Shown: one piece after another, positions 5,397 through 20,628 of the stretch
Position numbering within the stretch: position 1 is the stretch's first letter
Layout: every line of letters begins with the position of its first letter
Origin: a bacterium
GTDB taxonomy: Bacteria > Patescibacteriota > Microgenomatia > Curtissbacterales > GWA2-41-24
Assembly: GCA_021813945.1 (NCBI GenBank)
Contig: JAKAJD010000003.1
Location: forward strand, 1 to 43,192
DNA: 43,192 nucleotides
Direction of reading: 5' to 3'
The notes under the pieces: model-generated
Told to the model about the DNA's origin: nothing
What the model saw: only the letters and a program-made list of their open reading frames with translations
Database searches by the model: none
Program-made: the position numbers and the translations under genes

Positions 5397-5541
5397 GATT
5401 TGCGCTTGAGATAATATACCCTGAAATCTTCCGAAAGGTAAGATATCAAAAAAATCCGGGGGAAACCGAATTTGTTTGAAGGACGTTAGTCCTTTTAACA
5501 TTTAATCAATAAATCGGCATCCGGTCAAGGTGGTGATAAAA

Positions 5542-5775
5542 ATGCCAGGCAAGAATCAACATGTAGTTCCAGTAGGAAGTGATTGGGGTATTCGTGGAGA
5601 GGGCAATTCTAGACTTACTTCAGTTTTTGAAAATAAACAAGACGCATTAAAGGTAGGTAGGAAGATTGCAATCAACCAACAAGCAGAGCTTGTTATTCAC
5701 GGCCGAGATGGTCGGATCCAAGACAAGGATAGTTTTGGCCACGATCCAGTCCCGCCAAGAGATAAAAAACATTAA
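5542..5775 (+). CDS. DUF2188 family protein (start reassigned to ATG 5542)
   Basis: HVVP...WGIRGEG...F...QDA...ELVIHGRDGRIQ pattern. Confidence 0.85.
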   Translation: MPGKNQHVVPVGSDWGIRGEGNSRLTSVFENKQDALKVGRKIAINQQAELVIHGRDGRIQDKDSFGHDPVPPRDKKH

Positions 5776-5777
5776 AT

Positions 5778-7103
5778 ATGGATATTCTGACCAAGAAAAT
5801 AGAATCATTCGGTTTTGATGATATAGTGACTTTTTGCAAAGAAGGTCACCGAGAAGATTATCAAATTGATTACAAAAAAGATCTTCCTTCGAATGGTTTG
5901 GCAAAGCACTTCGCCGCTTTTTCGAATTCAAAAGGTGGTTTGATCCTAATTGGTGTTGAAGAAAATAGAATCACAGGTATTCCTATTAAGTGGGATGGTG
6001 TGAATAATGATGCGAAGTCGATTGAAAGGATACATCAGTGGGCTTCAAACGTGGAGCCTTTACCGAGAAGCACAGTTCATGTTACTGAAGAGAAAAACGG
6101 AAAGGTTTTTATATTGATTCGAATATTGGAGGGTGATCGAACACCATACTACGTTCAGAACGATTCAAATCTGTGGGTTAGGACTGGAAATATTAGTACT
6201 CCTATTGATCTTGCGTCCCCTGATTATGCAGAGTTGTTATTTAAGAGAAAAGAGCAGGCTGATATCAGCCGCAATATATTTATAAAACAGACAGCCGATG
6301 TTTATAACGCGGCTTTAAGAAGGGCAGAACGAGAACGTTTGGCGAAGATTGCGAAAGAGGCAGAAGATTACAAAAAGAAAAAAGAAGCGGGAGACCCTCA
6401 ACCCATAATAGATGCATTTGCTGGCGGCTTTCATTCCCACATTTATTCAAATAAACTTGGAAGCCAAGCCTCAATGTGTACTATCATTCTACAGCCATTT
6501 TTCCCAAAGGAGGCATTATTAAAGCCTTCTGAAATAAAAGATCGAATAGTTGAAATTAGAGATTTGCAGAGAACTCCCAGAATGTATTTTCCAGATTTAA
6601 ATGTGTGGCCAATACCTCAGGGAATTTTGCGTTTTGATTGGGGGGAAAGTGATGGACAAATTGACTGTCATCAGATTTACGCTTCTGGTTTGGTTTACTC
6701 TTCAACTGATGTTTTGATGGTAGACCATGAATCTAAGAAAAAACTAATTTACTTGTCTCACGTTTTAGGAAGACTATTTCAAGTTTTGAAGGCGGCTAGT
6801 AATTTTTATCAAATTGCCGGATACCAAGGTGGTGTGGAAGGATATCTGGAGCTGGCTAATACTGAGGATATTAGCTTGGTGGGGTTTCAGCATGAGCTTT
6901 TTAACAGAGATTTGCTGGGTTTAATGCCCAGCTACCAACTTAATTTTTCAGATTTAGATACTTCAAAATTAAGTGACCCTAAAGCTTTCCAGGAATTTTT
7001 CGAGAATTATGTTAAAGAATTTTTCTGGTCTATTGGAAAGCCTGACTTGCACGAGTCTCTAATTAAGAAATTTTTGCAAGATAATCAGTGGCTTGTCACG
7101 TAA
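5778..7103 (+). CDS. Schlafen/AlbA_2-domain protein with an unknown C-terminal domain
   Basis: E...IDYKK...KHFAAFSNSKGGLILIGVEE AlbA_2 signature in the first ~150 aa. Confidence 0.85.
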   Translation: MDILTKKIESFGFDDIVTFCKEGHREDYQIDYKKDLPSNGLAKHFAAFSNSKGGLILIGVEENRITGIPIKWDGVNNDAKSIERIHQWASNVEPLPRSTVHVTEEKNGKVFILIRILEGDRTPYYVQNDSNLWVRTGNISTPIDLASPDYAELLFKRKEQADISRNIFIKQTADVYNAALRRAERERLAKIAKEAEDYKKKKEAGDPQPIIDAFAGGFHSHIYSNKLGSQASMCTIILQPFFPKEALLKPSEIKDRIVEIRDLQRTPRMYFPDLNVWPIPQGILRFDWGESDGQIDCHQIYASGLVYSSTDVLMVDHESKKKLIYLSHVLGRLFQVLKAASNFYQIAGYQGGVEGYLELANTEDISLVGFQHELFNRDLLGLMPSYQLNFSDLDTSKLSDPKAFQEFFENYVKEFFWSIGKPDLHESLIKKFLQDNQWLVT

Positions 7104-8698
7104 CTGGTTCTAACGTTCTCTACTAGGCGGAGCCAAATAGGACGCTCAAGGTATAAATGACCTGTTTGGAGCGTATTGTCAGGCTTTTCTTTAGGTTCGA
7201 AAGTTTTATCTGTAATTTCTTCTTTATTCTGCACTTTCGAATTATTTGTTATTCGTACAGCTTCGGCAAGGAGTTCAAATGTCTTTGAGTATTCAATATT
7301 AAGCTTGCCTTCGTTAAGGGTAAGTTTTGAGAATACCAGGTTGATAAGGGCTCGTTTATCCTCTTCGCTCTTTGCTTTCTCGTATATCTGTCTGGCTCTT
7401 TGGGAAAGCTCGTAAATGTTAATCCCTAATTGGTAGTATTTACTACTTGCGTGGTTGTGCTTTTCCGCAGTTTGGGTGAGTTTATCCAACTCGTCATTCC
7501 ACTGCTTTGATAACCTGTTATACGCCTCTTCGGTGACTTTGCCATCCAGCTTATCAATGTATAACTTATCCAGTCGGTTTCTCAGTAATTCTTGTTTCTG
7601 ATTGAGCTCAGCAATAACAGATGTGTAATATGCAATTTGGTCTTTGTGACCTTCTTTCAAAGCTTTTCTTATCCACTCGACAATTCGGGTATTCTTAATT
7701 TCCAGCTTCTCAAACTCACCAACAATCTGCTTTTCAACTTCATCTTGTGTTACCCAACTCTTTTGTGAACAGTTTTTATAGTGATTACAGTGACCGTAAA
7801 TAATGCCTTTATGTATTTCCCAAGTAATCGTTCCATTGCATTCTTGGCAACGAAGCACCCCCTTAAATCTATAGCTATGTTTGGCGTATTTGGGAGTATT
7901 TTTACTTCTGAGTAGCGACTGTACTTTATAAAATACTTCCTCGGATAGTAATACTGGGTGATTTCCTTTATAGATTTCTCTGTTCCAGCACATCTTGCCA
8001 ATGTAAAACGGGTCACAAAGTAGTCTATGAATTCTGCTTTTAACCACTTTACTTCCACTATCGTTTCTTAAGCCTTCCTCATACATTTTGGTTGTGAGTT
8101 TCTTGAGCGAGTATTCACCGGACGAATACAGCTCAAACATTTTTCTAATGAATCCTGCTTTTTCTTCATCAATAATGTGCGTTTTGTGCCCTTTTTCTCC
8201 TATGGTTTTGTAGCCGATTGGCGGTTTAGTGGGTAGCCAACCTTGAGCAATTTTCTCCTTTTGCCCCTTCTTTACATTCTCCGACAGCAATCTGACATAG
8301 TATTCGGCAGTGGCTACCTTTACTCTCCACATAAACCACTCATGGGACTTTGAGTTTTTGTGTAATATGCAGCCTTCCTTAGCAAGATGAATCTGGTTGT
8401 TATCGTTCTCTAAAACCCACTTATCAATGGTTGGAACATCAGCGAAGTTACGAGTTAGGCGGTCTGTGGTTTCGACAATAACCACGGAAATTTTGAATTT
8501 ACGAATGTAAGCAGCCATCTCATTGAATACTTTTCTTTGAACACTTCCGCTTGCTGATTCTGAAACTGCAAATACTTTTTCAATAGTAAAGTTATTGCGT
8601 CCAGCATAATCCCGAAGGTACTTCTCTTGTGCGGGAAGGGAATAGCCCGTTTCCTCCTGCTCTTTACTCGATACTCTGCAAAATAAAACTGCTTTCAT
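7085..8698 (-). CDS. Large serine recombinase (Int2), currently with a chimeric C-terminal tail
   Basis: FCRVSS catalytic Ser, DRLTRN, recombinase domain, Zn ribbon CQEC...YGHCNHYKNC, coiled coil; reads through the att junction (W-L at 7135-7130). Confidence 0.95.
   Translation of the reverse strand: MKAVLFCRVSSKEQEETGYSLPAQEKYLRDYAGRNNFTIEKVFAVSESASGSVQRKVFNEMAAYIRKFKISVVIVETTDRLTRNFADVPTIDKWVLENDNNQIHLAKEGCILHKNSKSHEWFMWRVKVATAEYYVRLLSENVKKGQKEKIAQGWLPTKPPIGYKTIGEKGHKTHIIDEEKAGFIRKMFELYSSGEYSLKKLTTKMYEEGLRNDSGSKVVKSRIHRLLCDPFYIGKMCWNREIYKGNHPVLLSEEVFYKVQSLLRSKNTPKYAKHSYRFKGVLRCQECNGTITWEIHKGIIYGHCNHYKNCSQKSWVTQDEVEKQIVGEFEKLEIKNTRIVEWIRKALKEGHKDQIAYYTSVIAELNQKQELLRNRLDKLYIDKLDGKVTEEAYNRLSKQWNDELDKLTQTAEKHNHASSKYYQLGINIYELSQRARQIYEKAKSEEDKRALINLVFSKLTLNEGKLNIEYSKTFELLAEAVRITNNSKVQNKEEITDKTFEPKEKPDNTLQTGHLYLERPIWLRLVENVRTSYVTSH
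7129..7144 (+). other. Hybrid att junction: right end of element A and left end of element B
   Basis: GGAGCCA core; the arm GCCAAATAGGACG (7132-7144) is the inverted complement, 11/13, of CGTCCCACTTGGC (17669-17681). Confidence 0.8.
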
Positions 8699-8724
8699 AT
8701 TTTTATAGTTATTTTTAGTATATT

Positions 8725-8754
8725 GATACTATCAAGTAATGTCAACTAATATCA
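8725..8754 (+). promoter_or_regulatory. 10-bp tandem direct repeats upstream of int2
   Basis: GATACTATCA-AGTAATGTCA-ACTAATATCA; the same unit occurs at 12273-12292. Confidence 0.65.
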
Positions 8755-8958
8755 TAAATGTGAACCTATTTCCAATTCCGCCCATTGAGCCTTATCAATA
8801 ATTCTCCGCATAAGGGATGCCAAATGTTTTCTACACCTTACACATGGGGATGGGGCTTTCGTAGAAATATATTCATCAATCGCTTCTGTCAGAAGAATTA
8901 AATCTTGCCTATCTACCTCTAATTGATAATACCTCTTTTTATTGTTTATATTCTTCAT
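8752..8958 (-). CDS. Small hypothetical protein (CxxC)
   Basis: 68-aa ORF overlapping the upstream ATPase stop by 4 nt (ATGA). Confidence 0.6.
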   Translation of the reverse strand: MKNINNKKRYYQLEVDRQDLILLTEAIDEYISTKAPSPCVRCRKHLASLMRRIIDKAQWAELEIGSHL

Positions 8959-10250
8959 ATCGATTCACCCCCTGTGTCTGCTGACATTTCGGGTAAGGAC
9001 TCGTCTGACCCAAAAATCTCTTTGGCGGTTTCAACAATATCTTCGTGTGGTTTGGCATTACCAAGGAGTTCTCTTGTGGACTCTTTTATTCTCCACCTGT
9101 CTGCCACGCCTTGTCCTTGATGTTCTCTATCGATAAGTCCAAGCCCATTGAGGTCTTCCAATAATCTCCTGGTTGTGTTTGTGGGATAGCCGATTTTCGT
9201 TGCTATTTCTGCTGTAGTGAGATAGTCTTGCGTTTCAAGTAAAATTCCTATTGCTAATTTTCGCTTTATCGGTAAACAGTCAAAGCCAACTTTATATACC
9301 AGTTCATAGTCCTCATCAGCAAACTCACCATTACGCATTAAAGCCATTGCCGAGCATAAAGTGATGAGTTGTTTGGCAAGTCGAGTAGGAAGTTCAACAT
9401 CAGGTATTTGTTCAATCTCTCTCGTAGAATAACTTTCTCTAATAACGCCACTTCTTGCTCTGGTTACAAAACTTGCAAGATTAGCAATTCGGTCTATCAA
9501 CGATTCAGGAAGTGAGTAATTTGTCTCTGGGACGTTGATGCTTTCAATATAATCAGTAAAAGCAGTCTGAATTTCCGTTCTCATTGCCGTTTCACCTCCA
9601 CTATTTGCAATTGCTTTCTTGGCTACAGCTATGTAATCGGGTTGCAGGGGGCGGTATTGGATAAAACGCTCTCCTAATACCGTGTATATTTCGTGATGTC
9701 TATCAATAACGGTGGTGACACCAGCGATAAAGCCTATTTTGCCTTGCCACTCCTTTGTTTCTCCAGTTCCAAATTCTTTGCGATAGGTGCCGTCGAATAT
9801 TTCTCGTAGCTGCGAAATAATAACCTGCTGTTTATCACGGTGCATACTGAGCACTGTCGTGAAGTCTTTCAAGGTAAGAATTGTTCCGGTTGGTATACGC
9901 AATAATAAACTTGCGTTTTTGTTACCCTTTTCACCACTGAGGAAAGTTTGCGTTGTTAGGTCAGATAAAGCGTATATTTTCTCAATTTTGTTGAGTCCTC
10001 GAATAAGCTCTGTTTTTGTGGCTCCTGGCGGAGCGACGATAAACAACCACACAGGGTCGGCATTTAAACGGTTGGCGATAACAGTTGCAGCAAGCAATCG
10101 AAGAATACCCTTATCTTTTATTAACAGCCACTTATTCACGATACTTTCCAGTGTGTTAAAGTCTATCGGATGCCTGTCCTCAAGCAGGTTCTTTTCTATT
10201 TCTAAGAATTTTTGCTCTATTTTTTGCTCGTTAAATGAATAATTTGTCAT
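8955..10250 (-). CDS. AAA+/MCM-like ATPase with C-terminal wHTH, putative replicative helicase
   Basis: Walker A-like VAPPGATKTE, Walker B-like ILTLKDF, QLREIFDG, GFIAGVT, LGERF arginine-finger region, C-terminal TTAEIATKIGYPTNTTRRLLEDL HTH. Confidence 0.7.
   Translation of the reverse strand: MTNYSFNEQKIEQKFLEIEKNLLEDRHPIDFNTLESIVNKWLLIKDKGILRLLAATVIANRLNADPVWLFIVAPPGATKTELIRGLNKIEKIYALSDLTTQTFLSGEKGNKNASLLLRIPTGTILTLKDFTTVLSMHRDKQQVIISQLREIFDGTYRKEFGTGETKEWQGKIGFIAGVTTVIDRHHEIYTVLGERFIQYRPLQPDYIAVAKKAIANSGGETAMRTEIQTAFTDYIESINVPETNYSLPESLIDRIANLASFVTRARSGVIRESYSTREIEQIPDVELPTRLAKQLITLCSAMALMRNGEFADEDYELVYKVGFDCLPIKRKLAIGILLETQDYLTTAEIATKIGYPTNTTRRLLEDLNGLGLIDREHQGQGVADRWRIKESTRELLGNAKPHEDIVETAKEIFGSDESLPEMSADTGGESI
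8983..8996 (-). repeat. Element B dispersed motif TTACCCGAAATGTC, copy 1
   Basis: GACATTTCGGGTAA on the plus strand; exact match to the reverse complement of 17563-17576. Confidence 0.75.
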
Positions 10251-10882
10251 AGATTTCCATTGAGATAATTAACTGCTTCTTTGAATGAATAGTTGTGTAG
10301 TAACCGGACAAGATTGATAGAATTACCCCCTTGATTACACCCAAAACACCAACAGGTATTTGAATCAGGGTAAATAAAGAATGAAGGCGTATGTTCTTCG
10401 TGAAGTGGGCATAAACATACGATTCTGCTTCCGCTTCTGCGAAGCCTCACATCCTTACTGAGGAGTGTTTCGATAGGCACTTGAAGTGCTGAGGACATTT
10501 CGTCTTCACTCAATCTGTTTAATTTCTTTGCTTGCCTATTTTTACTAATCCAGAGGAGATGTTTCAGTCTTGAAATGTGGGTATCAACTTCAAATAGCTT
10601 CTGTCCCTCCGTTGCTTTTATCCATTCCCTCCAAAACCATTGCGTAAAGTCGTCTTTAATCTCTCTTTTAATATACGAAAGCTTATTTGCTATGGTTTGC
10701 ACTAACAAGACTCGGTCTACCTCGAATTCTGAGATTTTAACGGGGATAATTTCTTTTGCTTCAGGAAATATTGCCAATAGCTCTTTATCTGTATATTTAG
10801 GCTGGCTTTTTCGCCATTCTTTTTCCAGCTCAAAGGCATAGTCAAGATACTCATCGTCTATTACTAAGGTTTTATTATTCAT
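10247..10882 (-). CDS. Stand-alone CHC2 (DnaG-type) primase zinc-finger protein
   Basis: C-terminal CPLHEEHTPSF...WCFGCNQGGN; no TOPRIM domain; ATGA overlap with the ATPase gene. Confidence 0.85.
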   Translation of the reverse strand: MNNKTLVIDDEYLDYAFELEKEWRKSQPKYTDKELLAIFPEAKEIIPVKISEFEVDRVLLVQTIANKLSYIKREIKDDFTQWFWREWIKATEGQKLFEVDTHISRLKHLLWISKNRQAKKLNRLSEDEMSSALQVPIETLLSKDVRLRRSGSRIVCLCPLHEEHTPSFFIYPDSNTCWCFGCNQGGNSINLVRLLHNYSFKEAVNYLNGNL

Positions 10883-11018
10883 AGTTGATTTTTATTAGTA
10901 GTTCAAAAAACATAACCAGAGAATTTCCAATTTCAGATAGTTCGGATGGAGTTAAACTAACTCCGTAATCCTCTTCAATAATAGTCTTGAGCTCTTGTAA
11001 TAGTTGTTGACTAACCAT
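10875..11018 (-). CDS. 47-aa microprotein (not in ORF track)
   Basis: Manual translation: MVSQQLLQELKTIIEEDYGVSLTPSELSEIGNSLVMFFELLIKINYE*; overlaps the next start codon; similar to 2330-2473. Confidence 0.8.
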   Translation of the reverse strand: MVSQQLLQELKTIIEEDYGVSLTPSELSEIGNSLVMFFELLIKINYE

Positions 11019-11020
11019 AG

Positions 11021-11275
11021 CTATCTTTCTCCGTAAATCCTCCCTTTAATTACCTTGAGCTGGTTAAAGTAAGCCAAAGGCTCGACTCTGACCTCTCTTC
11101 GCCAAAAAGACTCAATAAGCTCATCGAGTTGTTCGTTGCGTTGGAACAGAAAACTAACTTTGTGAGGAGAGGTTCTGTCTATCGAATCAATAGGAAACCA
11201 AAGTGATATAGCAGTAGCCAACGGGAGACTTTGTGTGGAGTAAATAGTATCCAGTTTTATGTTTTCTTGGCTCAT
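11021..11275 (-). CDS. DUF5659-like small protein
   Basis: YSTQSLPLATAI...IDRTSPHKVSFLF...FWRREVRVEPLAYFNQLKVIKGRIY; paralog of 2475-2723. Confidence 0.78.
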   Translation of the reverse strand: MSQENIKLDTIYSTQSLPLATAISLWFPIDSIDRTSPHKVSFLFQRNEQLDELIESFWRREVRVEPLAYFNQLKVIKGRIYGER

Positions 11276-11355
11276 ACTTATGCAAATAAAAAAGCTCTGA
11301 ACTTTTACATCCAGAGCTTACCAAGTGAGCCTCTTGAAATTGTGACACTAATTTT

Positions 11356-12207
11356 TCATTTTTTGTGTAGTAGAAGTCTTGCTCGCTCTTTTAATCGTTG
11401 TTTTTGTTTACGCACGACTTGACTCCTTTTACCAGTATTATCATTAAATATTCTGGTTGCTAAGTCTGTCGAGGTAACCTTGTGGTGCTCTTCCTCACCC
11501 CCAAGCCCTCTTGCAAAATCGAACCGGTGTTCAATCTGTCCCATTTTTCTTGTTTTCAAAGCCGTATCAAGAGTGCGGAAACGCCTGCGTATATTTTTGC
11601 TTCTTTTTAGAATTTCTTTAAGCTCTCTATATGCCTGTCTAAACTTGGGTTTTGGTATTTGCGGGTTATTTCCGACTATTCCTTTAAAGCAGGCGAGAAT
11701 AAATTTTTTCTCTTGAGTGGTAAGCACAAACCTTTCTATTTCGTCAACGTGGTTTATTACTTGGTTAATAAGTTCGAAGTTATAGGAGGGAATATATGAT
11801 GGTTTGCCATAAAGTAGATAGTCTTGTACCCAATCGTAAAAATTCAGTGGCAATTTATACTCTTGTATAAGGTCAGTAATCGTTTTTTCAAGCATTTCCC
11901 GTTTCGCGGGTGGCAATGATTCTAGCCAGTCGTGTACTTCGATGTCTACGCTCCTGCCTTCGTACTCAATTTGTATGGTTTTAAAATCATGATTGGGGTT
12001 CAGACTGGGGATTTTAAATTGTGTTTGTATATCTCGGATTTCCGCGTTAAACTTCTTATCCCGTTTAAGATAAGTCGCAATCTCCTCATTTAGATTGCTT
12101 CGCACTCCAAAGAATTTTTCGGCTTCACGCCACAAACTTATTTGAATTAGAGTGCCAATGGGAGAAAGTTTCTTTAATGTATTGATGTGTTTTTTCTTTA
12201 ATCTCAT
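11356..12207 (-). CDS. Hypothetical protein with a basic C-terminus
   Basis: 283-aa ORF, first gene of the leftward backbone operon. Confidence 0.7.
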   Translation of the reverse strand: MRLKKKHINTLKKLSPIGTLIQISLWREAEKFFGVRSNLNEEIATYLKRDKKFNAEIRDIQTQFKIPSLNPNHDFKTIQIEYEGRSVDIEVHDWLESLPPAKREMLEKTITDLIQEYKLPLNFYDWVQDYLLYGKPSYIPSYNFELINQVINHVDEIERFVLTTQEKKFILACFKGIVGNNPQIPKPKFRQAYRELKEILKRSKNIRRRFRTLDTALKTRKMGQIEHRFDFARGLGGEEEHHKVTSTDLATRIFNDNTGKRSQVVRKQKQRLKERARLLLHKK

Positions 12208-12225
12208 TCTTATGTTTATACTTCG

Positions 12226-12242
12226 GTTTACCCGAAAAGTCG
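12226..12242 (+). repeat. Element B dispersed motif, copy 2
   Basis: GTTTACCCGAAAAGTCG, 16/17 identical to 17561-17577; in the divergent promoter region. Confidence 0.75.
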
Positions 12243-12272
12243 GTTAATTGATTTAGCCTGGTGATAGTGTAT

Positions 12273-12292
12273 ACTAATATCAAGTAATATCA
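12273..12292 (+). promoter_or_regulatory. 10-bp tandem direct repeats upstream of the excisionase-like gene
   Basis: ACTAATATCA-AGTAATATCA, ending 11 bp before ATG 12304; TATCAAGTAAT(A/G)TCAA is 15/16 identical to 8730-8745. Confidence 0.65.
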
Positions 12293-12303
12293 AAGAATAA
12301 TTT

Positions 12304-12489
12304 ATGAAAAAAGACAATAGCGAAGGTTTAATTAAGCTTAGCGAGGCATGTAAGATTCTGAATGTTCACCCCCAAACGCTCCGGCAGTGGGATAGAAAAG
12401 GGATTCTAAAAGCTGTGAGGTTTGGACAAAGAGGTGATAGGAGATATAGAAAGGAAGATATCTTAAAATTAATTGGCAAAAAAACTTAG
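12304..12489 (+). CDS. MerR-type HTH, excisionase/RDF-like
   Basis: LIKLSEACKILNVHPQTLRQWDRKG...GDRRYRKEDI. Confidence 0.9.
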   Translation: MKKDNSEGLIKLSEACKILNVHPQTLRQWDRKGILKAVRFGQRGDRRYRKEDILKLIGKKT

Positions 12490-12491
12490 TT

Positions 12492-12908
12492 ATGAATCTA
12501 AATATTAAGGAATTCTTGTCGTCAAGCCTTGTAGATGCAGTAAAAAGGCTTGGCATAGTTGGGACGATTTCTTATGTAGGAGCTGCCACTGTTTTCGTTG
12601 TTCTCCTTTTGGTCAATTTTAATGCGGAACCTGTAAAAGCTGGCGTGTTGTTAAGCATAGGCGTTGCCTTGTTAATGTACTCAGGAGCAATCTATTGGTC
12701 TGAAACAAAACAAGAAACCGAGAAAATGAAGGAGGCTTTAGGAGTTCTGCGTGAGGTATATAACCGTATGGCCGAACAAATATCAACAGCAGATAAAGAT
12801 AAAACCGTTTCAATAACCATGACTATTGATAACCTGCCAGATAAAATTGCAGAGGTTATTAAGAAGACTTCAATTCAAGGAAAAGAAAGTCATGAAACAA
12901 AAAAATAA
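12492..12908 (+). CDS. Two-TM membrane protein with coiled-coil tail
   Basis: Two hydrophobic segments followed by a charged helical region. Confidence 0.7.
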   Translation: MNLNIKEFLSSSLVDAVKRLGIVGTISYVGAATVFVVLLLVNFNAEPVKAGVLLSIGVALLMYSGAIYWSETKQETEKMKEALGVLREVYNRMAEQISTADKDKTVSITMTIDNLPDKIAEVIKKTSIQGKESHETKK

Positions 12909-13635
12909 ATTTGCATTAGTTACAGGAGCATCCACAGGCATCGGTAGAGCAATTGCTATTGAATTAGCAAAATCAGGTGTTTATGTTGGATTGGTTGCTC
13001 GAACTGAGGATAGACTAAAAATAACTAAAAAATTAATTGAACAAGGAGGTGGTCAAGTTGAAATCTTCATTGCTGATTTGAGCAGAGTTGAGTCGATAAA
13101 TAACTTAATTTTTCAAGTTAAAAACAAAACGAAAAAGATTAGTATTTTAATAAACGTTGCTGGAATATGGCATGGAGACGATGAGGTATTTGCGGATAAA
13201 GATTTTGATACCTTTTCCCAGAAAGTAATTCTTGATACTTATCATGTTGGCATGATTGCCCCTACCTTACTTGCTCACGCTCTCATACCCTTAATGCTAA
13301 GGGGTAGCAGAATAATAAACATTTCAGGTACTTTTGAAAGTGGTGCTAAGGGATGGCTACCTTACTTTGTATCAAAGAAAGCAATAGAAGACTTGACCAT
13401 CGGTTTGGCTGAGGAGTTGAAAGACAAAGGCATAACAGCCAATGCTATTTCTCCTTCTGATACTGCTACGGAAGCCTACAAAAAGTATTTTCCTCAGTAT
13501 ATGGCAGAGGCTATTGAACCAGAAGAAATCGCCAAATTTGCAGTATATTTGTGCTCACCTCAGGCAAGTGACATTTCGGGTAAAGTGTTTGTGTTGAAAA
13601 AGGGCAAACAACCTTTTGAGGGATATCATACTTAA
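12892..13635 (+). CDS. Short-chain dehydrogenase/reductase (start reassigned to ATG 12892)
   Basis: TGASTGIG glycine-rich motif, NVAG, YFVSK catalytic YxxxK. Confidence 0.92.
   Translation: MKQKNKFALVTGASTGIGRAIAIELAKSGVYVGLVARTEDRLKITKKLIEQGGGQVEIFIADLSRVESINNLIFQVKNKTKKISILINVAGIWHGDDEVFADKDFDTFSQKVILDTYHVGMIAPTLLAHALIPLMLRGSRIINISGTFESGAKGWLPYFVSKKAIEDLTIGLAEELKDKGITANAISPSDTATEAYKKYFPQYMAEAIEPEEIAKFAVYLCSPQASDISGKVFVLKKGKQPFEGYHT
13570..13584 (-). repeat. Element B dispersed motif, copy 3 (inside the SDR gene)
   Basis: GACATTTCGGGTAAA, a 15-bp exact match to the reverse complement of 17562-17576. Confidence 0.7.
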
Positions 13636-13653
13636 GAAAATAAAAAAAGCATT

Positions 13654-14121
13654 ATGGCAAGTAGAGATAGAGATGAAGATAAACTTCGCAAAAGGCTTGT
13701 TTCAGCATTAAGAGAAATCTTAACAAAGAATGACCCCGAACTTTTAGTTGAAGAAGTACACGGCGTTGGGGAGCATGGATTAGATATTATTTTTCTCGCT
13801 CGTGATTACTCCGGAGAAAAACATTGCTTCGGAATACAAGTAAAAGCAGTTAATATTTCCTGTCAGGGACACCCTACGAAGGATGTTAAAGAGATAATAG
13901 GGCAACTTACTATCGCAACAGGTTACGATTATAAATTCCAAGCAGATAATACCTATGAGTTTAGTGGCTTTTATGTTGTGACAGACAAAGAAGTTTCCGA
14001 AGTAGCAAAAAAGTATATCTCGTCGGCATTCAAACACGGAAAGCCAATTTACTATTTGTACGGCTCAAGATTGGAGAAGTTTCTACTAGACAACGAAAAT
14101 AAAAACATAACAAAACCATGA
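13654..14121 (+). CDS. Mrr-like PD-(D/E)xK restriction endonuclease-fold protein
   Basis: GEHGLDII...FGIQVK motif (D...QxK), FYVVT strand; 155 aa, stand-alone. Confidence 0.8.
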   Translation: MASRDRDEDKLRKRLVSALREILTKNDPELLVEEVHGVGEHGLDIIFLARDYSGEKHCFGIQVKAVNISCQGHPTKDVKEIIGQLTIATGYDYKFQADNTYEFSGFYVVTDKEVSEVAKKYISSAFKHGKPIYYLYGSRLEKFLLDNENKNITKP

Positions 14122-16295
14122 AAATAAAATTTGAATTTAAAGACGACAAGAGTAACCCTACGGAACAAGTAAAAGCATTCATCGCATACTGGCTGGAAGA
14201 ACATGGTATCAGAGATGAGGTAAAAGTATTATCCCCAGAAAAAATTTTGGGTAAAGGAGCAGACTATTTTGTTATAAATTCTGGACTTCTAATTGAAGCG
14301 ACCCAGTTGATTGACAATGAAGATTTAGCTAGGAGTGCTAAGTGGGCTATTACGGTAAATACTCTAAGCAAATTAATTAAAGAAGATAGCAGATTTTCTT
14401 CGATTAAAGGATTGCATTCTATTTCTACACCAGAAAACTTCGGTCTTAAAGCATCGCAACTAAAAAACGAGTCTGTATTAAATACAAAGATAAGTAAGGC
14501 TGTTGACGACATAATTAAAGCAATTTTGTCTAAAAGACCAGAAGTGGATGTATTTGGATATAAACTAAGAGTTGAAAAAGTTAACGAGGTTGACGATGGT
14601 ATTTATTTCTCAACCATAGGAAGAGCGAGGTCTATTAGTGTAGCAGGAATTTTCCATGAGAATTTGAGGAAAAAATTTGACAAGGCCAATACACAGCTTG
14701 GGATAGAAGAAATTGATGGAGCCAAGGTTAAGAGCAGAGTGCTTCTAATTGTAAATAAATATCGTTTGCTAACTTTCGATTGGGATTTATTTGAGGGACT
14801 CAGTTATTCATATAAAGAGCTAGTCGAGAAATACAGCAACATCAGCGAGATTTGGTTTCAAGCTGAAGACGGGGAAGGTAAATATCAGCATAAGTTGCTT
14901 TACAGAAAGGCTATCTTTACGCAGTTTGAAAACATGGATTTCTCAAATATGAACAGCCAAGATTACGAGGTCTTCGCAAAGTGGTTTTCAGCGCTTGAGA
15001 AATTAGATGATAATAAAAAACAAATCTTAATCGAGGCTCTTAAAATTCTATTAAAAAGACACTCACCTCATAAAATCTTTCCTGACCCCCAGACGAGAAT
15101 TGAAATGGTAAGGTATGGAAGATGGCTTGCCGAGAACAACAAAAGGAATGACGCAAACTGGCTGATAAAGCAATTTCTTAACGACCCTGACCCAAGCGAC
15201 CCCCCAACTGGGGACAAAAAAGATTATGGTAATGAGTTGCATGAAAGCATTAAGAAAGCAACTAAATCTGATATACATGCGATACATACTGTAAAAGGTC
15301 ATTTGGCATGGACTGTTCAATTGCTATCACTAAAAAAAGATTTTCTTCTCAAAGAGTCTTATGGTTATACACAAGGGGTGCTAAGAAGTACTAAGCACTT
15401 ATATTTAATCCTTCAGTGGATATTCCCACTAATCGAAATATCTAATAGACGATTCTGGTTAAAGGAACTCGATGAAAAACTTTATGAAGATTTTAGGAAG
15501 CTATGCTTTGAGCTTCTTGAGTCTTATTCAAAATATCCTGATATAGCAAAAGGGTTAGTTCATGTTTTTCATTACTTCAAGGAATTAACCACAGAGGAGA
15601 CTAAAGAAGTACTAAATAAACTTGAGAAAGCCGATGATTATGAAACGTTACTTCTTTATTTTGCAATATACAGAGAAAAGCACTTCAAAGAGGAAAAATA
15701 CAATAAAGAGATTAGAGATTACAATCCTACATATGCAAAGAAAAAACTTGAAGAGACGATATTAAATGACGATAACGGACTTCTCAATCTGCGTTCGGGA
15801 ATAGCTTGGAATATTTGGAAGATACTATCAGAGGATGAAAAAGAGCTTGAAACCCTTATCCCATTAATAGACAGTTTTTTAACAAGCCCTTACGATGGTC
15901 ATCTTTTTCACAATTTTGAGAGAATTGTTGAGGAGTATATTGATAAATTCCCAGAGAAAAGTATCACATGGTTTATACAAATAATTAAAGCTGCGAAACT
16001 GTATTTAGACAAAAAACCTGACGAAGGCAGAAACGTGTGGTTAAGCACCGAAATAGGAAAAGTATTAAGGAAAACAGCAGAGAAAAAACCCGAGCAACTG
16101 CTGGTACTAATAGAACTTCTATATGAAATGTGGATGAAAGGAGCGTTCGTGGGAACTATATCAGAGATTTTTACTTCGTATAAATTTATTGATAACAAAG
16201 AGCTTAGATTACAACTGGAAGGTAAGTTCAAGGAAATTTACTTTCGAATGAAAAAAGTGAATGAGAAACTTGAAAACGTAGATTGGTCTGAGTAA
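14118..16295 (+). CDS. 725-aa protein: possible N-terminal nuclease-like domain plus long alpha-helical C-terminus
   Basis: GADYF-x6-IEAT near the N-terminus resembles a PD-(D/E)xK-type centre; the C-terminal ~450 aa looks helical-repeat-like; ATGA overlap with the upstream nuclease gene. Confidence 0.7.
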   Translation: MKIKFEFKDDKSNPTEQVKAFIAYWLEEHGIRDEVKVLSPEKILGKGADYFVINSGLLIEATQLIDNEDLARSAKWAITVNTLSKLIKEDSRFSSIKGLHSISTPENFGLKASQLKNESVLNTKISKAVDDIIKAILSKRPEVDVFGYKLRVEKVNEVDDGIYFSTIGRARSISVAGIFHENLRKKFDKANTQLGIEEIDGAKVKSRVLLIVNKYRLLTFDWDLFEGLSYSYKELVEKYSNISEIWFQAEDGEGKYQHKLLYRKAIFTQFENMDFSNMNSQDYEVFAKWFSALEKLDDNKKQILIEALKILLKRHSPHKIFPDPQTRIEMVRYGRWLAENNKRNDANWLIKQFLNDPDPSDPPTGDKKDYGNELHESIKKATKSDIHAIHTVKGHLAWTVQLLSLKKDFLLKESYGYTQGVLRSTKHLYLILQWIFPLIEISNRRFWLKELDEKLYEDFRKLCFELLESYSKYPDIAKGLVHVFHYFKELTTEETKEVLNKLEKADDYETLLLYFAIYREKHFKEEKYNKEIRDYNPTYAKKKLEETILNDDNGLLNLRSGIAWNIWKILSEDEKELETLIPLIDSFLTSPYDGHLFHNFERIVEEYIDKFPEKSITWFIQIIKAAKLYLDKKPDEGRNVWLSTEIGKVLRKTAEKKPEQLLVLIELLYEMWMKGAFVGTISEIFTSYKFIDNKELRLQLEGKFKEIYFRMKKVNEKLENVDWSE

Positions 16296-16303
16296 TTATC
16301 GAC

Positions 16304-16317
16304 TTTACCTAAATGTC
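16304..16317 (+). repeat. Element B dispersed motif, degenerate copy 4
   Basis: TTTACCTAAATGTC versus TTTACCCGAAATGTC. Confidence 0.45.
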
Positions 16318-16325
16318 AGAGGGGA

Positions 16326-16535
16326 TTATTTTTCAAACAATTGAGCTAATTCTATTTCAAGAGCACGAGCAATCTTAGTGAGAGTTTTTAGGGTTGGATT
16401 TCTTTTTCCACTTTCTATATCCACAATCGAACGAGCTTCGATTTTTGTAAGCTCCGCTAATTTTTCCTGAGTCATATCCTTCTCTTTCCGTAACCTTTTT
16501 ATCCGTTCGCCTACTTTTTTGTAAGTCCCAATCAT
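16326..16535 (-). CDS. XRE-family HTH regulator
   Basis: GERIKRLRKEKDMTQEKLAE...IESGKRNPTLKTL. Confidence 0.9.
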   Translation of the reverse strand: MIGTYKKVGERIKRLRKEKDMTQEKLAELTKIEARSIVDIESGKRNPTLKTLTKIARALEIELAQLFEK

Positions 16536-17687: not shown

Positions 17688-17763
17688 TTCGACTCACCCT
17701 GTTCGCTCATGGCTATAGCCGCTAACTACTTGAGTCGAATGTCTTGAGTGAGTCATGAGCGAA
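17686..17763. repeat. Interleaved inverted repeats (REP-like) upstream of the GIY-YIG gene
   Basis: CATTCGACTCA(17686-96)/TGAGTCGAATG(17731-41); TTCGCTCATG(17702-11)/CATGAGCGAA(17754-63); palindrome GGCTATAGCC(17711-20). Confidence 0.8.
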
Positions 17764-17768
17764 GGCGA

Positions 17769-18053
17769 ATGACGAATCGAAAGACATACTATTTTTACAT
17801 TCTCCGCTGCGCTGACAATTCACTTTATTGTGGGATGAGTTCTAATTTAGAAAACCGACTTAAAGAACACAACTCCAACGGCTCAAAAGGAGCTAAATAT
17901 TTGAGAGGTAAAAAGCCGGTTAAATTTGTACACACGGAAAAATTTCAAGATATTAAATCAGCTATGAATAGGGAGTTGCAAGTTAAGAGGTGGACTAAAG
18001 CTAAAAAGGAGGCTTTGATAGCCGGAAATTTTGAATTGTTAAAAAAGTTATAA
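17769..18053 (+). CDS. Stand-alone GIY-YIG nuclease (UPF0213-like)
   Basis: YFYIL...LYCG, RLKEH, A...E..VK.W...KK..LI. Confidence 0.9.
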   Translation: MTNRKTYYFYILRCADNSLYCGMSSNLENRLKEHNSNGSKGAKYLRGKKPVKFVHTEKFQDIKSAMNRELQVKRWTKAKKEALIAGNFELLKKL

Positions 18054-18159: not shown

Positions 18160-19072
18160 ATGAAATCTATTTTGATAAAGCCACCATCATCTCCGCTAGT
18201 GACAGTAATCCTCCGCTGTCTAGGAATTGGAGTAATCTACGCTGTGACCAACGCACTAGTAGCGGTTTTGCTGGGACAAATGACCCGTCTCGCCCCGACC
18301 TGGGAAACGCCCTTATCTGGACCCTAACCGGCACTATTATCGCTTTATCCTTGAGTCCTTTTATTCGTCACTCTTTCTGGTCGCGAAACAAAACTATTCT
18401 TGCAGTGTGGACACTTTTAACGTTTGTCCGTGCAATCGGATTGGGAATTGAAGGCGCTCTTTTCAAGCCTACCACCGCGACTAACCAATTCGTTAGTGCA
18501 ATCACTGGTACTCTTGTCCTTCTATGGATTGCCTGGGTCGCCGTCCGTTTGCTCGCTCCAAATACTCTAGCAAAGAGTGTGGACGGAATAAGATTTCCCA
18601 GTTCGATTAAAGCCTGGTGGGAATGGATTTTGCGAGTAATAGTTGGCAGTCTATCTTACCTTGTTTTCTACTTTGTGTTTGGAGCTGCGAACGCTTTCCT
18701 GTACACCCTTTTGTGTTTGGAGCTGCGAACGCTTTCCTGTACACCCTGAGTTTTTACAAGGACAATCCACAGTACGGATTCAGTCTTCCGCCTGTTGGAA
18801 TAATCTTTATCGCACTACTAATACGCGGTCCTCTCATGGTTCTTGGTGCTGCTCTCCTTGCCCAGTCTGTGTCGGTATCGCGTCGCCAGCTTGCGGTCTG
18901 GTTGGGTCTGCTCCTGTTCGTTGTGGATGGGCTTGCCGCCTATGTTGAGGGGACCTTCCGCACAATGCCGTTGGGCTTTAATATGGCAACACTCGCCGAG
19001 CTTTTCTTCCAGAACTTTCTAACCGGTGTGGTCGTCGCCTACTTGTTTGGCAATCAGTCCCAGAGGGGCTGA
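18160..19072 (+). pseudogene. Multi-pass membrane protein gene with two frameshifts
   Basis: Hydrophobic coding in three consecutive frames: ATG 18160 frame to ~18295, the 18351-18749 frame, then the 18617-19072 frame after a 38-bp duplication; repaired length about 291 aa. Confidence 0.7.
18672..18747 (+). repeat. Perfect 38-bp tandem duplication
   Basis: TTTGTGTTTGGAGCTGCGAACGCTTTCCTGTACACCCT at 18672-18709 and 18710-18747. Confidence 0.95.
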
Positions 19073-19513: not shown

Positions 19514-20587
19514 CTATCGAATCTTAGTCACAATTCCCTTTTCCGCATCTACCTCAACCATATCTCCATCCTTAAAAACTTTTGTTGCATTGCCTGTTGC
19601 AACTATACAGGGTATCCCAAATTCACGGCTTACAATGGCGGCGTGAGATAAAAGGCCTCCTACATCAGTAACAATAGCTGCTGCTTTTTGACAAGCAATT
19701 ATTAACTCCGGTGCTGTTGTCTCTGCAATGAGGATGTTACCTTTTTCCATTTTGGATATTTCCGCATTTAAGATACCTATATCTTTGTAATCGACATTAA
19801 TAACTTTAACCTTTCCAGTTGCCTTGCCTAAGCTTGCGGGTGTGCCGTTTACCGTTTTTGTTGAAGATGCGGTATCTCTAAATGATTGAATAATTGTTAG
19901 AACATTTTGTCCCTGGTCTATTGCGCTGCGATCGTAATTTATAAGGAAAGCGGTTTGTCGTTTGGAGATCTGGTGTAGATTGGGTTTTTTACCTTCGAAA
20001 AGACCAAGGATTTCCTGCTGGGTTAAATCGGCAAGGATTTTCGGATCAAGATTAAATTGTTTTGCCAGAATTGTAAAAAATTCGCTACTGTATCTGCTTT
20101 TTTCGAATAAAACAGTGTTCATGAATGATCGGACTTTGTCCTTAAACTGAGACATTAAAGCAAGATTTTTCTTAATAATGGGATTCTTTTCTTGGTTGGA
20201 AAAGGCTTTATCTGTGAATTCGAAATTCATCTTTGTATAGTCTTTACAAAGCTTTATTGTGTATTTGAAAAACGTTTTAACGACAGATTGAGAAAGCTTT
20301 TCCTTTTTGCGGATTTCCTTTGAATAAAAATCTTTAAAAGTCTTAAGGTGTTTTATTAAATCTGTTTGATATTCTGTGAATGCGTTTTTTTCGCTATAGA
20401 ACTTTAGACCTCGATCCAGCGTTTTGTTGTAAGCAATATTTGTGAAATATTGCTTAAACATTCCGTTGTCTATTAAAAATAGGACTTCCAAATCTTTATA
20501 GACATCGACGTGAATGTCGGTGACAAATACACTGACTCCTTGAACCCAGAAGCTTAACGTATAGTCCTTCTTATTGAACTTTTTCAT
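19514..20587 (-). CDS. PEP-utilising enzyme mobile (phospho-His) domain protein (start reassigned to ATG 20587)
   Basis: C-terminal TDVGGLLSHAAIVSREFGIPCIVAT...DGDMVEVDAEKG. Confidence 0.85.
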   Translation of the reverse strand: MKKFNKKDYTLSFWVQGVSVFVTDIHVDVYKDLEVLFLIDNGMFKQYFTNIAYNKTLDRGLKFYSEKNAFTEYQTDLIKHLKTFKDFYSKEIRKKEKLSQSVVKTFFKYTIKLCKDYTKMNFEFTDKAFSNQEKNPIIKKNLALMSQFKDKVRSFMNTVLFEKSRYSSEFFTILAKQFNLDPKILADLTQQEILGLFEGKKPNLHQISKRQTAFLINYDRSAIDQGQNVLTIIQSFRDTASSTKTVNGTPASLGKATGKVKVINVDYKDIGILNAEISKMEKGNILIAETTAPELIIACQKAAAIVTDVGGLLSHAAIVSREFGIPCIVATGNATKVFKDGDMVEVDAEKGIVTKIR

Positions 20588-20628
20588 AAGCGGATTGTAC
20601 CAAAGTAAAGGAAATTGGTGATTGGTAT

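What the first reader, a model, noticed from the sequence alone, without database searches (positions are those of the whole stretch)
12492..16295. Candidate undescribed defence operon: TM protein - SDR - Mrr-like nuclease - 725-aa nuclease-like/helical protein
Seen: co-directional genes with overlaps or short gaps (TM/SDR overlap, 18-nt gap, ATGA overlap), in island cargo position and AT-rich; no methyltransferase and no NTPase motif recognised. Established: Mrr-like domains are effectors of Avs/STAND and type IV restriction systems, usually fused to a sensor. Inference: the 725-aa protein's helical C-terminus could be a phage-protein sensor activating one or two nucleases without a STAND module. 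The SDR could make or modify a small molecule or nucleotide for the system, or be unrelated cargo.
Basis: inference. Interest (0 to 1): 0.65.

Follow-up and report, generated by a model that had tools for sequence, protein, structure and literature searches.

The report
Nuclease pair that travels with restriction systems
The last two genes of the reported four-gene cluster (a small Mrr-like nuclease and a 725-residue protein with a nuclease-like head and an armadillo-like helical body) form a conserved, so far unnamed gene pair that in other genomes sits directly behind restriction-modification genes, which makes it a good but untested candidate for a phage-defence module; the membrane protein and the dehydrogenase belong to the mobile element that carries it, not to the pair.

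Summary
The four co-directional, tightly packed genes are real. With an upstream HTH gene they probably form one transcript, but they are two evolutionary units.

HTH-TM-SDR (12304-13635) is backbone of a serine-recombinase integrative element of Microgenomates-type (CPR) bacteria. It recurs at 72.5% nucleotide identity in another element, where similarity ends at the SDR stop and different cargo follows.

The 155-aa plus 725-aa pair (13654-16295) is a mobile two-gene module. In 44 of 54 non-redundant related loci a small nuclease gene lies directly upstream of the large gene. It is Mrr_cat-like in 32 loci and LmuA/Cap4-like in 12, and the two types are interspersed on the large protein's tree. 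In about 23 of 35 loci with enough upstream sequence, the largest same-strand upstream gene is a Type IIG, I, III or II restriction-modification enzyme, often with overlapping stop and start codons.

The large protein folds confidently (pLDDT 90.5) into an alpha/beta N-domain with a PD...E-x-K-type motif (Lys replaced by Thr in this clade) and an ARM/HEAT-like solenoid. It matched nothing in Pfam, NCBIfam, PADLOC 2.0 or PDB sequences, and five paper searches found no name.

Verdict: a plausible new NTPase-free nuclease-plus-solenoid defence candidate. Function is untested, and the four-gene system is not supported.

The parts
13654..14121 (+). PA: 155-aa Mrr_cat-like PD-(D/E)xK nuclease (motif E40-x-G-x-D44 ... 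Q62-x-K64), proposed exchangeable effector of the pair
   Evidence: In the family alignment A4 (28 sequences), G42, D44 and Q84 are invariant. E8, D51, G60, Q62 and K64 are at least 90% conserved. Twelve of 28 members hit Pfam Mrr_cat, best E 8.8e-7. One homologue (L009) passes the Pfam gathering cut-off, 21.7 against 21 bits. The gene lies directly upstream of the large gene in 32 non-redundant loci. The AF2 model is poor (pLDDT 46.5), but its predicted secondary structure is consistent with a restriction-endonuclease-like fold.
14118..14942 (+). BIG N-domain (residues 1-275): alpha/beta domain with a PD...E-x-K-type motif (D49, E60; canonical Lys replaced by T62 in this clade) plus invariant E244 and Q248
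   Evidence: In alignment A6 (31 sequences), D49, E60, L210, I242, E244, I245 and Q248 are invariant. Most clades read 'PDY..hEhK'; the window clade reads 'EAT'. In the AF2 model (pLDDT 90.5), D49 precedes strand 50-52 and E60/T62 lie on strand 57-64, after helix 15-28 and strand 35-38. This matches the alpha-beta-beta-beta-alpha-beta core. There is no Pfam or PDB sequence match.
14943..16295 (+). BIG C-domain (residues ~280-715): ARM/HEAT-like alpha-solenoid with conserved DPDPxDP, TVxGHLAW and PLxEIxNRR motifs; proposed sensor/scaffold
   Evidence: AF2 predicts an all-helical region with pLDDT above 90. Foldseek against PDB gives only importin-alpha and designed armadillo proteins (E about 5e-5, TM 0.2-0.36). 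This is the part kept in every architecture: alone in L020 (444 aa), and fused to a PB-like nuclease N-terminus in ~1200-aa proteins.
12304..12489 (+). 61-aa HTH_17/MerR (excisionase-like) gene; first gene of the co-directional cluster; carrier-element backbone, not part of the pair
   Evidence: Pfam HTH_17 E 3e-11. It is 87% identical to the equivalent gene in L077/L078. Homologues also occur in L021, L023 and L024.
12492..12908 (+). 138-aa two-TM protein; carrier-element backbone gene, not part of the pair
   Evidence: It has 71 homologues, and the named ones are from Microgenomates-type bacteria. They occur on integrative elements with an SDR (L077-80) and without one (L081, L083/84), and never next to BIG homologues elsewhere. 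SLATT hits are only sub-threshold (E about 1e-3).
12889..13635 (+). 248-aa classical SDR oxidoreductase; carrier-element backbone or cargo, not part of the pair
   Evidence: Pfam adh_short E 1.9e-35. It is 75% identical to the SDR that follows the TM gene in L077/78, and nucleotide similarity (72.5% over 1409 nt) stops at window position 13628, 7 nt before the end of the SDR gene.
7085..16535 (.). Probable ~9.5-kb integrative element that carries the pair. It holds a serine recombinase, a 431-aa wHTH protein, a CHC2 primase-like protein, DUF5659, a 283-aa protein, HTH-TM-SDR, PA-BIG and an HTH_3 repressor.
   Evidence: Pfam hits support the gene assignments. The same backbone genes flank other cargo in L077/78 and flank BIG homologues in L021, L023 and L024. 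Exact ends (att sites) were not determined.

Best explanation
The functional unit is the two-gene pair PA (155 aa) plus BIG (725 aa), not the four genes. It is most likely an NTPase-free, nuclease-based anti-phage or anti-MGE module carried here as cargo of a serine-recombinase integrative element in a CPR (Microgenomates-type) bacterium.

Shown:
- The pair is conserved across bacteria and a DPANN archaeon.
- The small partner is a PD-(D/E)xK nuclease that has been swapped repeatedly between an Mrr_cat-like and an LmuA/Cap4-like type.
- The constant component is BIG's ARM/HEAT-like solenoid.
- The pair is preferentially placed directly behind restriction-modification genes on the same strand, often translationally coupled.

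Inferred:
- BIG is the sensor or scaffold. Its solenoid binds a protein ligand: a phage protein, or possibly an anti-restriction protein or the neighbouring R-M enzyme.
- This binding releases or activates the partner nuclease, and perhaps BIG's own N-terminal PD...ExK-like domain, to cut DNA. The outcome is either destruction of the invader or abortive infection.
- In the window clade the N-domain has lost the canonical Lys (T62), so there it may act mainly as a DNA-binding or regulatory domain, with PA as the active nuclease.

The TM protein and the SDR are element backbone genes that are co-transcribed but functionally separate.
For: - Pair conservation: PA or PB lies directly upstream of BIG in 44 of 54 non-redundant loci, 32 PA and 12 PB. 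Start and stop codons overlap as in the window.
- PA is Mrr_cat-like.
- PB is LmuA/Cap4-like: PADLOC LmuA best E 4.1e-12, and E 1.4e-7 for L043; AbpA 8zue N-terminus E 1.6e-3.
- Partner types are interspersed on the BIG neighbour-joining tree, for example L026-PA beside L027-PB and L015-PB beside L032-PA.
- Rosetta-stone fusions of ~1200 aa join a PB-like N-terminus to the BIG solenoid. L020 has PB plus a solenoid-only BIG.
- R-M linkage: among 35 loci, the largest same-strand upstream ORF is Eco57I/N6_Mtase type in 13, ResIII in 6, and AlwI, DpnII, Methylase_S and PLDc_2 in one each. Gaps to the partner of -13 to +13 nt occur in many loci.
- BIG structure: pLDDT 90.5, alpha/beta N-domain plus solenoid.
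- Separation from TM/SDR.
- No hit for BIG in Pfam, NCBIfam, PADLOC or PDB sequences.
Against: - There is no experimental evidence of any kind; 'defence' rests on guilt by association.
- The N-domain's nuclease fold rests on motif and predicted topology only. No structure-based match was obtained, because Foldseek output was dominated by solenoid hits.
- Profile comparison to PA and PB gave nothing.
- The window clade lacks the canonical Lys.
- The PA model is of low confidence.
- About a third of loci, including the window, have no adjacent R-M, so the R-M linkage is not obligatory.
- Ten of 54 loci have no detected partner; some of these are visibly degraded.
- ARM-type matches have low TM-scores (0.2-0.36), so they show only a generic solenoid.
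- The ligand is unknown.
Confidence: 0.5

Rival explanations
1. Guard of restriction-modification. The pair is a back-up that monitors the upstream R-M enzyme, or captures anti-restriction proteins (Ocr/ArdA-type DNA mimics, Stp-like peptides) with the solenoid. It then unleashes the nuclease(s), as PrrC does with EcoprrI and PARIS does with Ocr.
For: The pair is tightly coupled on the same strand, often with overlapping stop and start codons, to four different R-M classes: Type IIG, Type I, Type III-like, and PLD-helicase plus MmeI-like methyltransferase. It is always at the 3' end of the R-M genes. Solenoids are typical protein or peptide binders, and the structural matches are to importin-alpha.
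Against: About 12 of 35 loci, including the window, L003/L004 and L009, carry the pair with no R-M nearby. A guard specific to one R-M enzyme is hard to reconcile with four unrelated R-M architectures. No anti-restriction ligand was identified.
Confidence: 0.2
2. Modification-dependent (Type IV-like) restriction. PA is an Mrr-type nuclease directed by BIG, which reads modified or foreign DNA through its nuclease-like N-domain and/or a HEAT-like DNA-scanning solenoid. The pair clusters with R-M genes as mrr and mcrBC do in the E. coli immigration control region.
For: PA is related to Mrr_cat. No methyltransferase is needed and the pair is viable alone on MGEs (window, L003, L009). The N-domain of BIG is basic in most members, median pI 8.45. 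It occurs next to R-M genes.
Against: No known modified-base reader domain (SRA, EVE/YTH, Mrr_N winged helix) was detected in Pfam. There is no GTPase or ATPase translocase. The nuclease is exchangeable with an LmuA/Cap4-type effector, which is typical of sensor-effector (abortive) systems rather than Type IV enzymes. The C-domain is slightly acidic, median pI 6.0.
Confidence: 0.15
3. One reading: TM protein, SDR, PA and BIG work together. For example, the SDR makes or modifies a small molecule and the TM protein is a membrane effector.
For: The genes are co-directional with overlaps or short gaps, and no terminator-like site lies at a gene junction. The TM protein has weak sub-threshold SLATT-like hits: NCBIfam SLATT_5 E 1.2e-3 and PADLOC RTasSLATT E 2.3e-3.
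Against: Neither TM nor SDR is next to any of the 76 other BIG loci. The only SDR hit, in L012, is a generic SDR 1 kb downstream behind two intervening genes. HTH-TM-SDR recurs as a block with unrelated cargo (dCMP deaminase, Ser hydrolase, SET), and similarity ends at the SDR stop. TM homologues also occur without an SDR. The SLATT scores are far below the NCBIfam curated cut-off (18 against 60 bits).
Confidence: 0.05
4. Not a defence system: an MGE maintenance, DNA-processing or addiction module (for example recombination or repair, or a toxin-like nuclease held in check by BIG) that hitch-hikes in variable regions.
For: In the window clade the pair rides on serine-recombinase elements and lies next to conjugative T4SS genes in L003 and L007. 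There are no functional data.
Against: The specific, repeated placement behind R-M genes of several classes in phylogenetically distant lineages (Saccharibacteria, Berkelbacteria, WOR-3, Planctomycetia, Pseudomonadota) is what is seen for defence genes. The alternative partner is homologous to the Lamassu effector LmuA.
Confidence: 0.1

Closest known systems
DSR2 (defence-associated sirtuin 2): N-terminal effector plus C-terminal HEAT-repeat sensor
   Same: Both lack an NTPase and combine an enzymatic effector domain with a long alpha-solenoid in one large protein. In DSR2 the HEAT-repeat domain binds a phage tail tube protein and switches on the effector (PMC11263360 and PMC11087589, abstracts seen). 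This is the best analogue for how BIG might work.
   Different: The DSR2 effector is a SIR2 NADase, not a PD-(D/E)xK-type domain. DSR2 is a single gene, whereas here a separate small nuclease partner is nearly always present. No sequence or specific structural match to DSR2 was obtained: Foldseek top hits were importin-alpha and designed ARM proteins.
Lamassu (LmuA effector + LmuB SMC-like sensor, +/- LmuC)
   Same: The alternative partner PB is homologous to LmuA of the Cap4-nuclease type: PADLOC LmuA best E 4.1e-12, and E 1.4e-7 over residues 8-239 of the L043 PB. Both have an exchangeable nuclease effector beside a constant large partner.
   Different: No SMC/Rad50-like LmuB is present and there is no ATPase. 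The constant partner is a solenoid protein unrelated to LmuB. The window itself has the Mrr-like partner, not the LmuA-like one.
Avs/AVAST and other STAND defence NTPases with Mrr or Cap4 nuclease effectors and TPR-type sensors
   Different: The defining STAND NTPase module is absent. There is no Walker A motif and no NACHT/NB-ARC Pfam hit. Effector and sensor lie on two polypeptides.
Mrr / Type IV restriction enzymes of the immigration control region
   Same: Mrr_cat-type catalytic core in PA, location beside Type I R-M genes, and no cognate methyltransferase.
   Different: PA lacks the Mrr N-terminal winged-helix DNA-binding domain and is only 155 aa. It depends, by gene linkage, on a 700-aa solenoid protein that has no counterpart in Mrr.
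PrrC/EcoprrI and PARIS (defences that back up restriction-modification)
   Same: Genes embedded in or attached to R-M operons. In those systems the extra genes fire when the R-M system is attacked by phage anti-restriction factors (my own knowledge of these systems; not tested here).
   Different: PrrC is an anticodon nuclease with an ABC-ATPase-like domain, and PARIS is an ATPase plus a TOPRIM nuclease. Neither has detectable homology to PA or BIG (no PADLOC hit).

Membership tests
Mrr_cat (PF04471) restriction-endonuclease-like nucleases, for the 155-aa protein | Significant match to the Pfam Mrr_cat profile | tested here: inconclusive
   The window protein itself scores E 0.04, 14.5 bits against a cut-off of 21. 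Twelve of 28 family members match at E <= 0.05, best 8.8e-7, and the L009 homologue passes the cut-off at 21.7 bits. Membership is therefore transitive.
Mrr_cat (PF04471) restriction-endonuclease-like nucleases, for the 155-aa protein | Catalytic D ... (E/Q)-x-K motif on consecutive beta-strands | tested here: met
   D44 is invariant and Q62 and K64 are at least 90% conserved across 28 sequences. In the (low-confidence) AF2 model, strands 44-50 and 56-62 carry these residues.
PD-(D/E)xK nuclease fold, for the BIG N-domain | alpha-beta-beta-beta-alpha-beta core with D at the start of strand 2 and (D/E)-x-K on strand 3 | tested here: inconclusive
   Predicted topology and invariant D49 and E60 fit. 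K is present in most clades but is T62 in the window clade. There is no sequence hit to any nuclease family. A structure search restricted to the domain could not be run.
STAND/Avs defence NTPases | Central STAND (NACHT/NB-ARC-type) P-loop NTPase domain | tested here: not met
   There is no Walker A motif in any of the five proteins, and no NTPase family in Pfam, NCBIfam or PADLOC.
Lamassu | LmuB SMC/Rad50-like ATPase encoded next to the LmuA effector | tested here: not met
   Only PB partners in related loci match LmuA. No BIG member matches LmuB or any PADLOC model. The window has PA, not PB.
SLATT two-TM effectors, for the 138-aa TM protein | Match to a SLATT profile above the curated cut-off | tested here: not met
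   NCBIfam SLATT_5 scores 18.4 bits against a cut-off of 60 (E 1.2e-3). PADLOC RTasSLATT gives E 2.3e-3. The protein has two TM helices followed by a charged helix, but there is no associated SMODS, SLOG or RT gene.
Restriction-modification system (any type) in the window | A DNA methyltransferase gene in or next to the cluster | tested here: not met
   No methyltransferase Pfam hit among the genes scanned between 114 and 24138, and no [DNS]PP[YFW] motif in the five cluster proteins. The right part of the window (24-43 kb) was not scanned by profile.
ARM/HEAT alpha-solenoid, for the BIG C-domain | Stacked helical repeats forming a superhelix; structural similarity to armadillo or HEAT proteins | tested here: met
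   The AF2 model is all-helical over residues 280-715 with pLDDT above 90. Foldseek against PDB returned 58 hits at E <= 1e-3, and all 50 hits listed are importin-alpha or designed armadillo-repeat proteins, but with TM-scores of only 0.2-0.36.

The most novel reading that the evidence does not exclude
PA-BIG is a new class of NTPase-free immune module that guards restriction-modification systems. Its armadillo-like solenoid would act as a bait for phage anti-restriction proteins, or would monitor the integrity of the R-M enzyme, and would license an exchangeable nuclease (Mrr-like or LmuA-like). This would explain why the pair is translationally coupled to Type I, IIG, III and helicase-linked R-M operons across CPR bacteria, DPANN archaea and several other phyla.
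Probability: 0.2. Interest if true: 0.75.

Novelty: new variant of a known kind. Interest (0 to 1): 0.55.

Why it matters
CPR/Patescibacteria and DPANN organisms have tiny genomes and few recognised defences beyond restriction-modification. A conserved pair attached to their R-M operons would be a candidate second layer of immunity. In the 50%-identity representative library, 414 proteins matched the BIG profile at E <= 1e-3.

Mechanistically it would add an example of the 'effector plus solenoid sensor' design without any NTPase, with clear natural effector swapping (Mrr-like against LmuA-like). That makes domain-swap experiments straightforward.

For annotation, the result corrects the unit of analysis. 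It is a two-gene module plus an unrelated HTH-TM-SDR backbone block of a serine-recombinase integrative element, whose slot after the SDR holds variable cargo.

Tried and rejected
- Direct family searches of BIG (Pfam, NCBIfam, PADLOC, PDB sequences) gave nothing significant. The weak ART hit (E 0.016) and PRK12473 hit were dismissed as chance.
- The AF2 model of PA from 14 close homologues was poor (pLDDT 46.5), and its Foldseek search was meaningless.
- Foldseek of the whole BIG model against PDB and BFVD returned only generic solenoid matches.
- hhalign of the PA profile against a bona fide Mrr_cat protein, and of the BIG N-domain against PA and PB profiles, found nothing. PA against PB aligned the D...(Q/E)xK core only at E 0.009, probability 4%.
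- A profile search of the BIG N-domain against PDB sequences and a per-member Pfam scan found nothing.
- tblastn of BIG homologues against PLSDB plasmids and INPHARED phages gave no match.
- A tRNA-derived att repeat for the second recombinase was looked for. The 40-nt similarity 155-194 / 7162-7201 is only the conserved 3' end of the two recombinase genes.
- Five literature searches for a named equivalent found none (one search failed on syntax). The aquifer defensome paper does not mention it.
- SLATT identity of the TM protein was rejected because the scores are sub-threshold.
- Net-charge analysis of the domains was not decisive.

Full report
**Observation**

The ORF list confirms four co-directional genes.
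- TM protein, 12492-12908, 138 aa.
- SDR, 248 aa from the ATG at 12889 (the longest ORF starts at a TTG at 12826), ending at 13635.
- A 155-aa ORF, 13654-14121.
- A 725-aa ORF, 14118-16295.

The TM protein has two hydrophobic segments. The SDR has intact TGxxxGxG and YxxxK motifs and strong Pfam support (adh_short E 1.9e-35). No Walker A or methyltransferase motif, and no such domain, is present.

The AT bias is modest: 35-37% G+C against 41.5% in the right half of the window.

The cluster is therefore probably a five-gene transcription unit, with no terminator-like site at any gene junction. The promoter scan found no more sites than in shuffled sequence, so this is weak evidence.

**Surroundings**

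Upstream on the other strand lie a large serine recombinase (7085-8698), a 431-aa wHTH protein, a CHC2 zinc-finger primase-like protein, DUF5659 and a 283-aa protein. Downstream lies an HTH_3 repressor-like gene (16326-16535, minus strand). A second serine recombinase (114-1802) abuts tRNA-Asn and heads another small island with a LexA-like repressor and a Schlafen/AlbA_2 protein. The window thus holds two integrative elements in tandem. Close homologues that carry names are from Levybacteria, Gottesmanbacteria and the Microgenomates group, and the longest contig carrying the 725-aa protein is 976 kb. By inference the host is a CPR/Patescibacteria bacterium.

**The four genes are two units**

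The 725-aa protein (called BIG here) first gave 23 homologues. A profile search of 1.84 billion cluster representatives gave 414 at E <= 1e-3. I fetched 76 loci encoding relatives.
- Neither the TM protein nor the SDR is found next to any of them. The only SDR hit is a generic one 1 kb downstream in L012, behind two intervening genes.
- TM homologues (71 proteins) lie on other integrative elements. In a Microgenomates genome (L077/L078) the block HTH_17-TM-SDR is conserved at 72.5% nucleotide identity over 1409 nt. The similarity stops at window position 13628, 7 nt before the end of the SDR gene. A dCMP deaminase, a Ser hydrolase, a SET-domain protein and a small terminase follow there.
- TM homologues also occur without an SDR.
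- BIG relatives of the window's own clade (L021, L023, L024) sit on elements sharing the HTH, DUF5659, recombinase and HTH_3 genes.

HTH-TM-SDR is therefore element backbone. The position after the SDR is a cargo slot, and the 155-aa plus 725-aa pair is the cargo here.

**The pair**

In 44 of 54 non-redundant loci with enough upstream sequence, a small gene lies directly upstream of BIG, typically overlapping its start. It comes in two unrelated types.
- Type PA, 32 loci including the window, about 150 aa. In a 28-sequence alignment G42, D44 and Q84 are invariant, and E8, D51, G60, Q62 and K64 are at least 90% conserved. This is a D...QxK restriction-endonuclease-like signature. The window protein hits Pfam Mrr_cat only at E 0.04, but 12 of 28 members hit it (best E 8.8e-7) and one passes the curated cut-off.
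- Type PB, 12 loci, 250-310 aa. It starts with a G-x-x-Y-Q motif and has invariant Q13, E62 and K64. It matches the Lamassu effector LmuA in PADLOC (best E 4.1e-12; E 1.4e-7 over residues 8-239 of L043) and the N-terminus of AbpA (PDB 8zue, E 1.6e-3). It is a Cap4-type nuclease.

On a neighbour-joining tree of BIG the two partner types are interspersed, so the nuclease partner has been exchanged several times. Proteins of about 1200 aa fuse a PB-like N-terminus to the BIG C-domain. In L020 a PB gene precedes a 444-aa BIG that consists of the C-domain only. The constant element of the system is therefore the C-terminal domain of BIG.

**BIG structure**

AlphaFold2 with the 23-sequence alignment gave a confident model (pLDDT 90.5, pTM 0.76), with an alpha/beta domain (residues 1-272) and an all-helical domain (280-715).

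Foldseek against PDB returned only importin-alpha and designed armadillo proteins (E about 5e-5, TM 0.2-0.36). BFVD gave nothing better. The C-domain is a generic ARM/HEAT-like solenoid without a specific relative.

The N-domain has invariant D49, E60, E244 and Q248.
- D49 precedes strand 50-52, and E60 lies on strand 57-64, after helix 15-28 and strand 35-38. This is the arrangement of a PD-(D/E)xK core.
- Most clades read 'PDY...hEhK', but the window clade reads 'E-A-T', so the canonical Lys is Thr.
- No sequence profile (Pfam, PDB) recognises the domain, and it is not detectably related to PA or PB.

'Nuclease-like' is thus supported by motif and predicted topology only.

**Genomic association**

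For 35 non-redundant loci with at least 2 kb upstream, I took the largest same-strand ORF within 5 kb upstream of the pair and scanned it with Pfam.
- 13 are Eco57I/N6_Mtase/MmeI-type enzymes of 930-1240 aa (Type IIG-like).
- 6 carry ResIII (Type I HsdR or Type III Res).
- One each is AlwI, DpnII, HsdS or a PLD-helicase.

That is about 23 of 35 with restriction-modification genes. Gaps between the last R-M gene and the partner are often -13 to +13 nt. The R-M classes differ even within BIG clades. Lineages include Saccharibacteria, Berkelbacteria, Gottesmanbacteria, WOR-3, Planctomycetia, Pseudomonadota and a Micrarchaeota archaeon. About a third of loci, including the window, have no R-M neighbour, and some are next to conjugative T4SS genes.

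**Interpretation**

The best-supported reading is a two-gene, NTPase-free nuclease module. BIG's solenoid would be the constant sensor or scaffold, and the small nuclease an exchangeable effector. The module is mobile and preferentially parked behind R-M systems, which is the pattern expected of a defence system.

How it is triggered is inferred, not shown. By analogy with DSR2, whose HEAT-repeat domain binds a phage protein and activates an N-terminal effector (PMC11263360, PMC11087589), the solenoid probably binds a protein ligand.

Two specific variants remain open.
- A guard of R-M that responds to anti-restriction factors. This would explain the translational coupling but not the stand-alone loci.
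- A Type IV-like modification-dependent nuclease. This fits Mrr_cat and the R-M neighbourhood, but no reader domain is present and effector swapping argues against it.

The four-gene model is essentially refuted by comparative context. A non-defence MGE function cannot be excluded without experiments.

**Known or new**

No model of PADLOC-DB 2.0.0 matches BIG, neither the window protein (E up to 1) nor ten family members scanned at E <= 0.01. There is no Pfam or NCBIfam family, no solved relative by sequence, and no hit in plasmid or phage records. Five full-text literature searches found no named equivalent. I could not run current DefenseFinder models, so a name given recently cannot be excluded.

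I rate it a new variant of a known kind (effector nuclease plus repeat sensor in defence islands), with moderate interest.

Noticed in passing
window 18672-18747: A perfect 38-nt tandem duplication (not a multiple of three) splits a membrane-protein reading frame into ORFs 18351-18749 and 18617-19072. It could be a frameshifted pseudogene, a slippage-type switch or an assembly artefact.
   Followed up: no
window 54-7103: A second integrative element lies next to tRNA-Asn (54-126). It has a serine recombinase (114-1802, minus strand), a bPH-domain protein (3438-3884), a LexA-like S24 repressor (4770-5501) and a 441-aa Schlafen/AlbA_2 protein (5778-7103), which may itself be defence cargo. The 3' ends of the two recombinase genes share a 40-nt stretch at 83% identity (155-194 / 7162-7201).
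   Followed up: partly
window 17748-18053 and 19514-20797: A stand-alone 101-aa GIY-YIG nuclease gene lies just outside the element. Further on is a 427-aa protein (minus strand) with only a C-terminal PEP-utilizers mobile domain and no Pfam hit over its N-terminal part.
   Followed up: no
L077/L078 4816-8700: A related Microgenomates element has the same HTH-TM-SDR block, but followed by a dCMP deaminase, a Ser hydrolase, a SET-domain protein and a small terminase subunit (Terminase_2). This suggests the element family is phage-satellite-like and has a variable cargo slot after the SDR.
   Followed up: partly
P0209, P0223, P0253 (about 1200 aa); L020 3235-5386; L023 5692-7857: Other architectures of the family were seen. 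There are single proteins of ~1200 aa whose N-terminus carries the PB-like motifs (by eye), followed by a long helical region and the BIG solenoid. L020 has a solenoid-only BIG (444 aa) after a PB gene. L023 has a BIG without any partner, next to an ORF on the other strand with a C5-methyltransferase-like PPCQGFS motif.
   Followed up: partly
L007 8157-8627: A 156-aa gene overlapping the 3' end of the BIG homologue carries a 'PD...IEET' motif reminiscent of the BIG N-domain motif. It may be a third small nuclease-like component in that locus. No homologue was found in the other loci.
   Followed up: partly
L008, L026, L058, L068: In four loci the pair follows a two-gene unit. One gene is a PLD plus SNF2-helicase protein (PLDc_2, ResIII, Helicase_C). 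The other is a 1140-1240-aa MmeI/Eco57I-type methyltransferase. This helicase-linked R-M-like system was not classified further.
   Followed up: no
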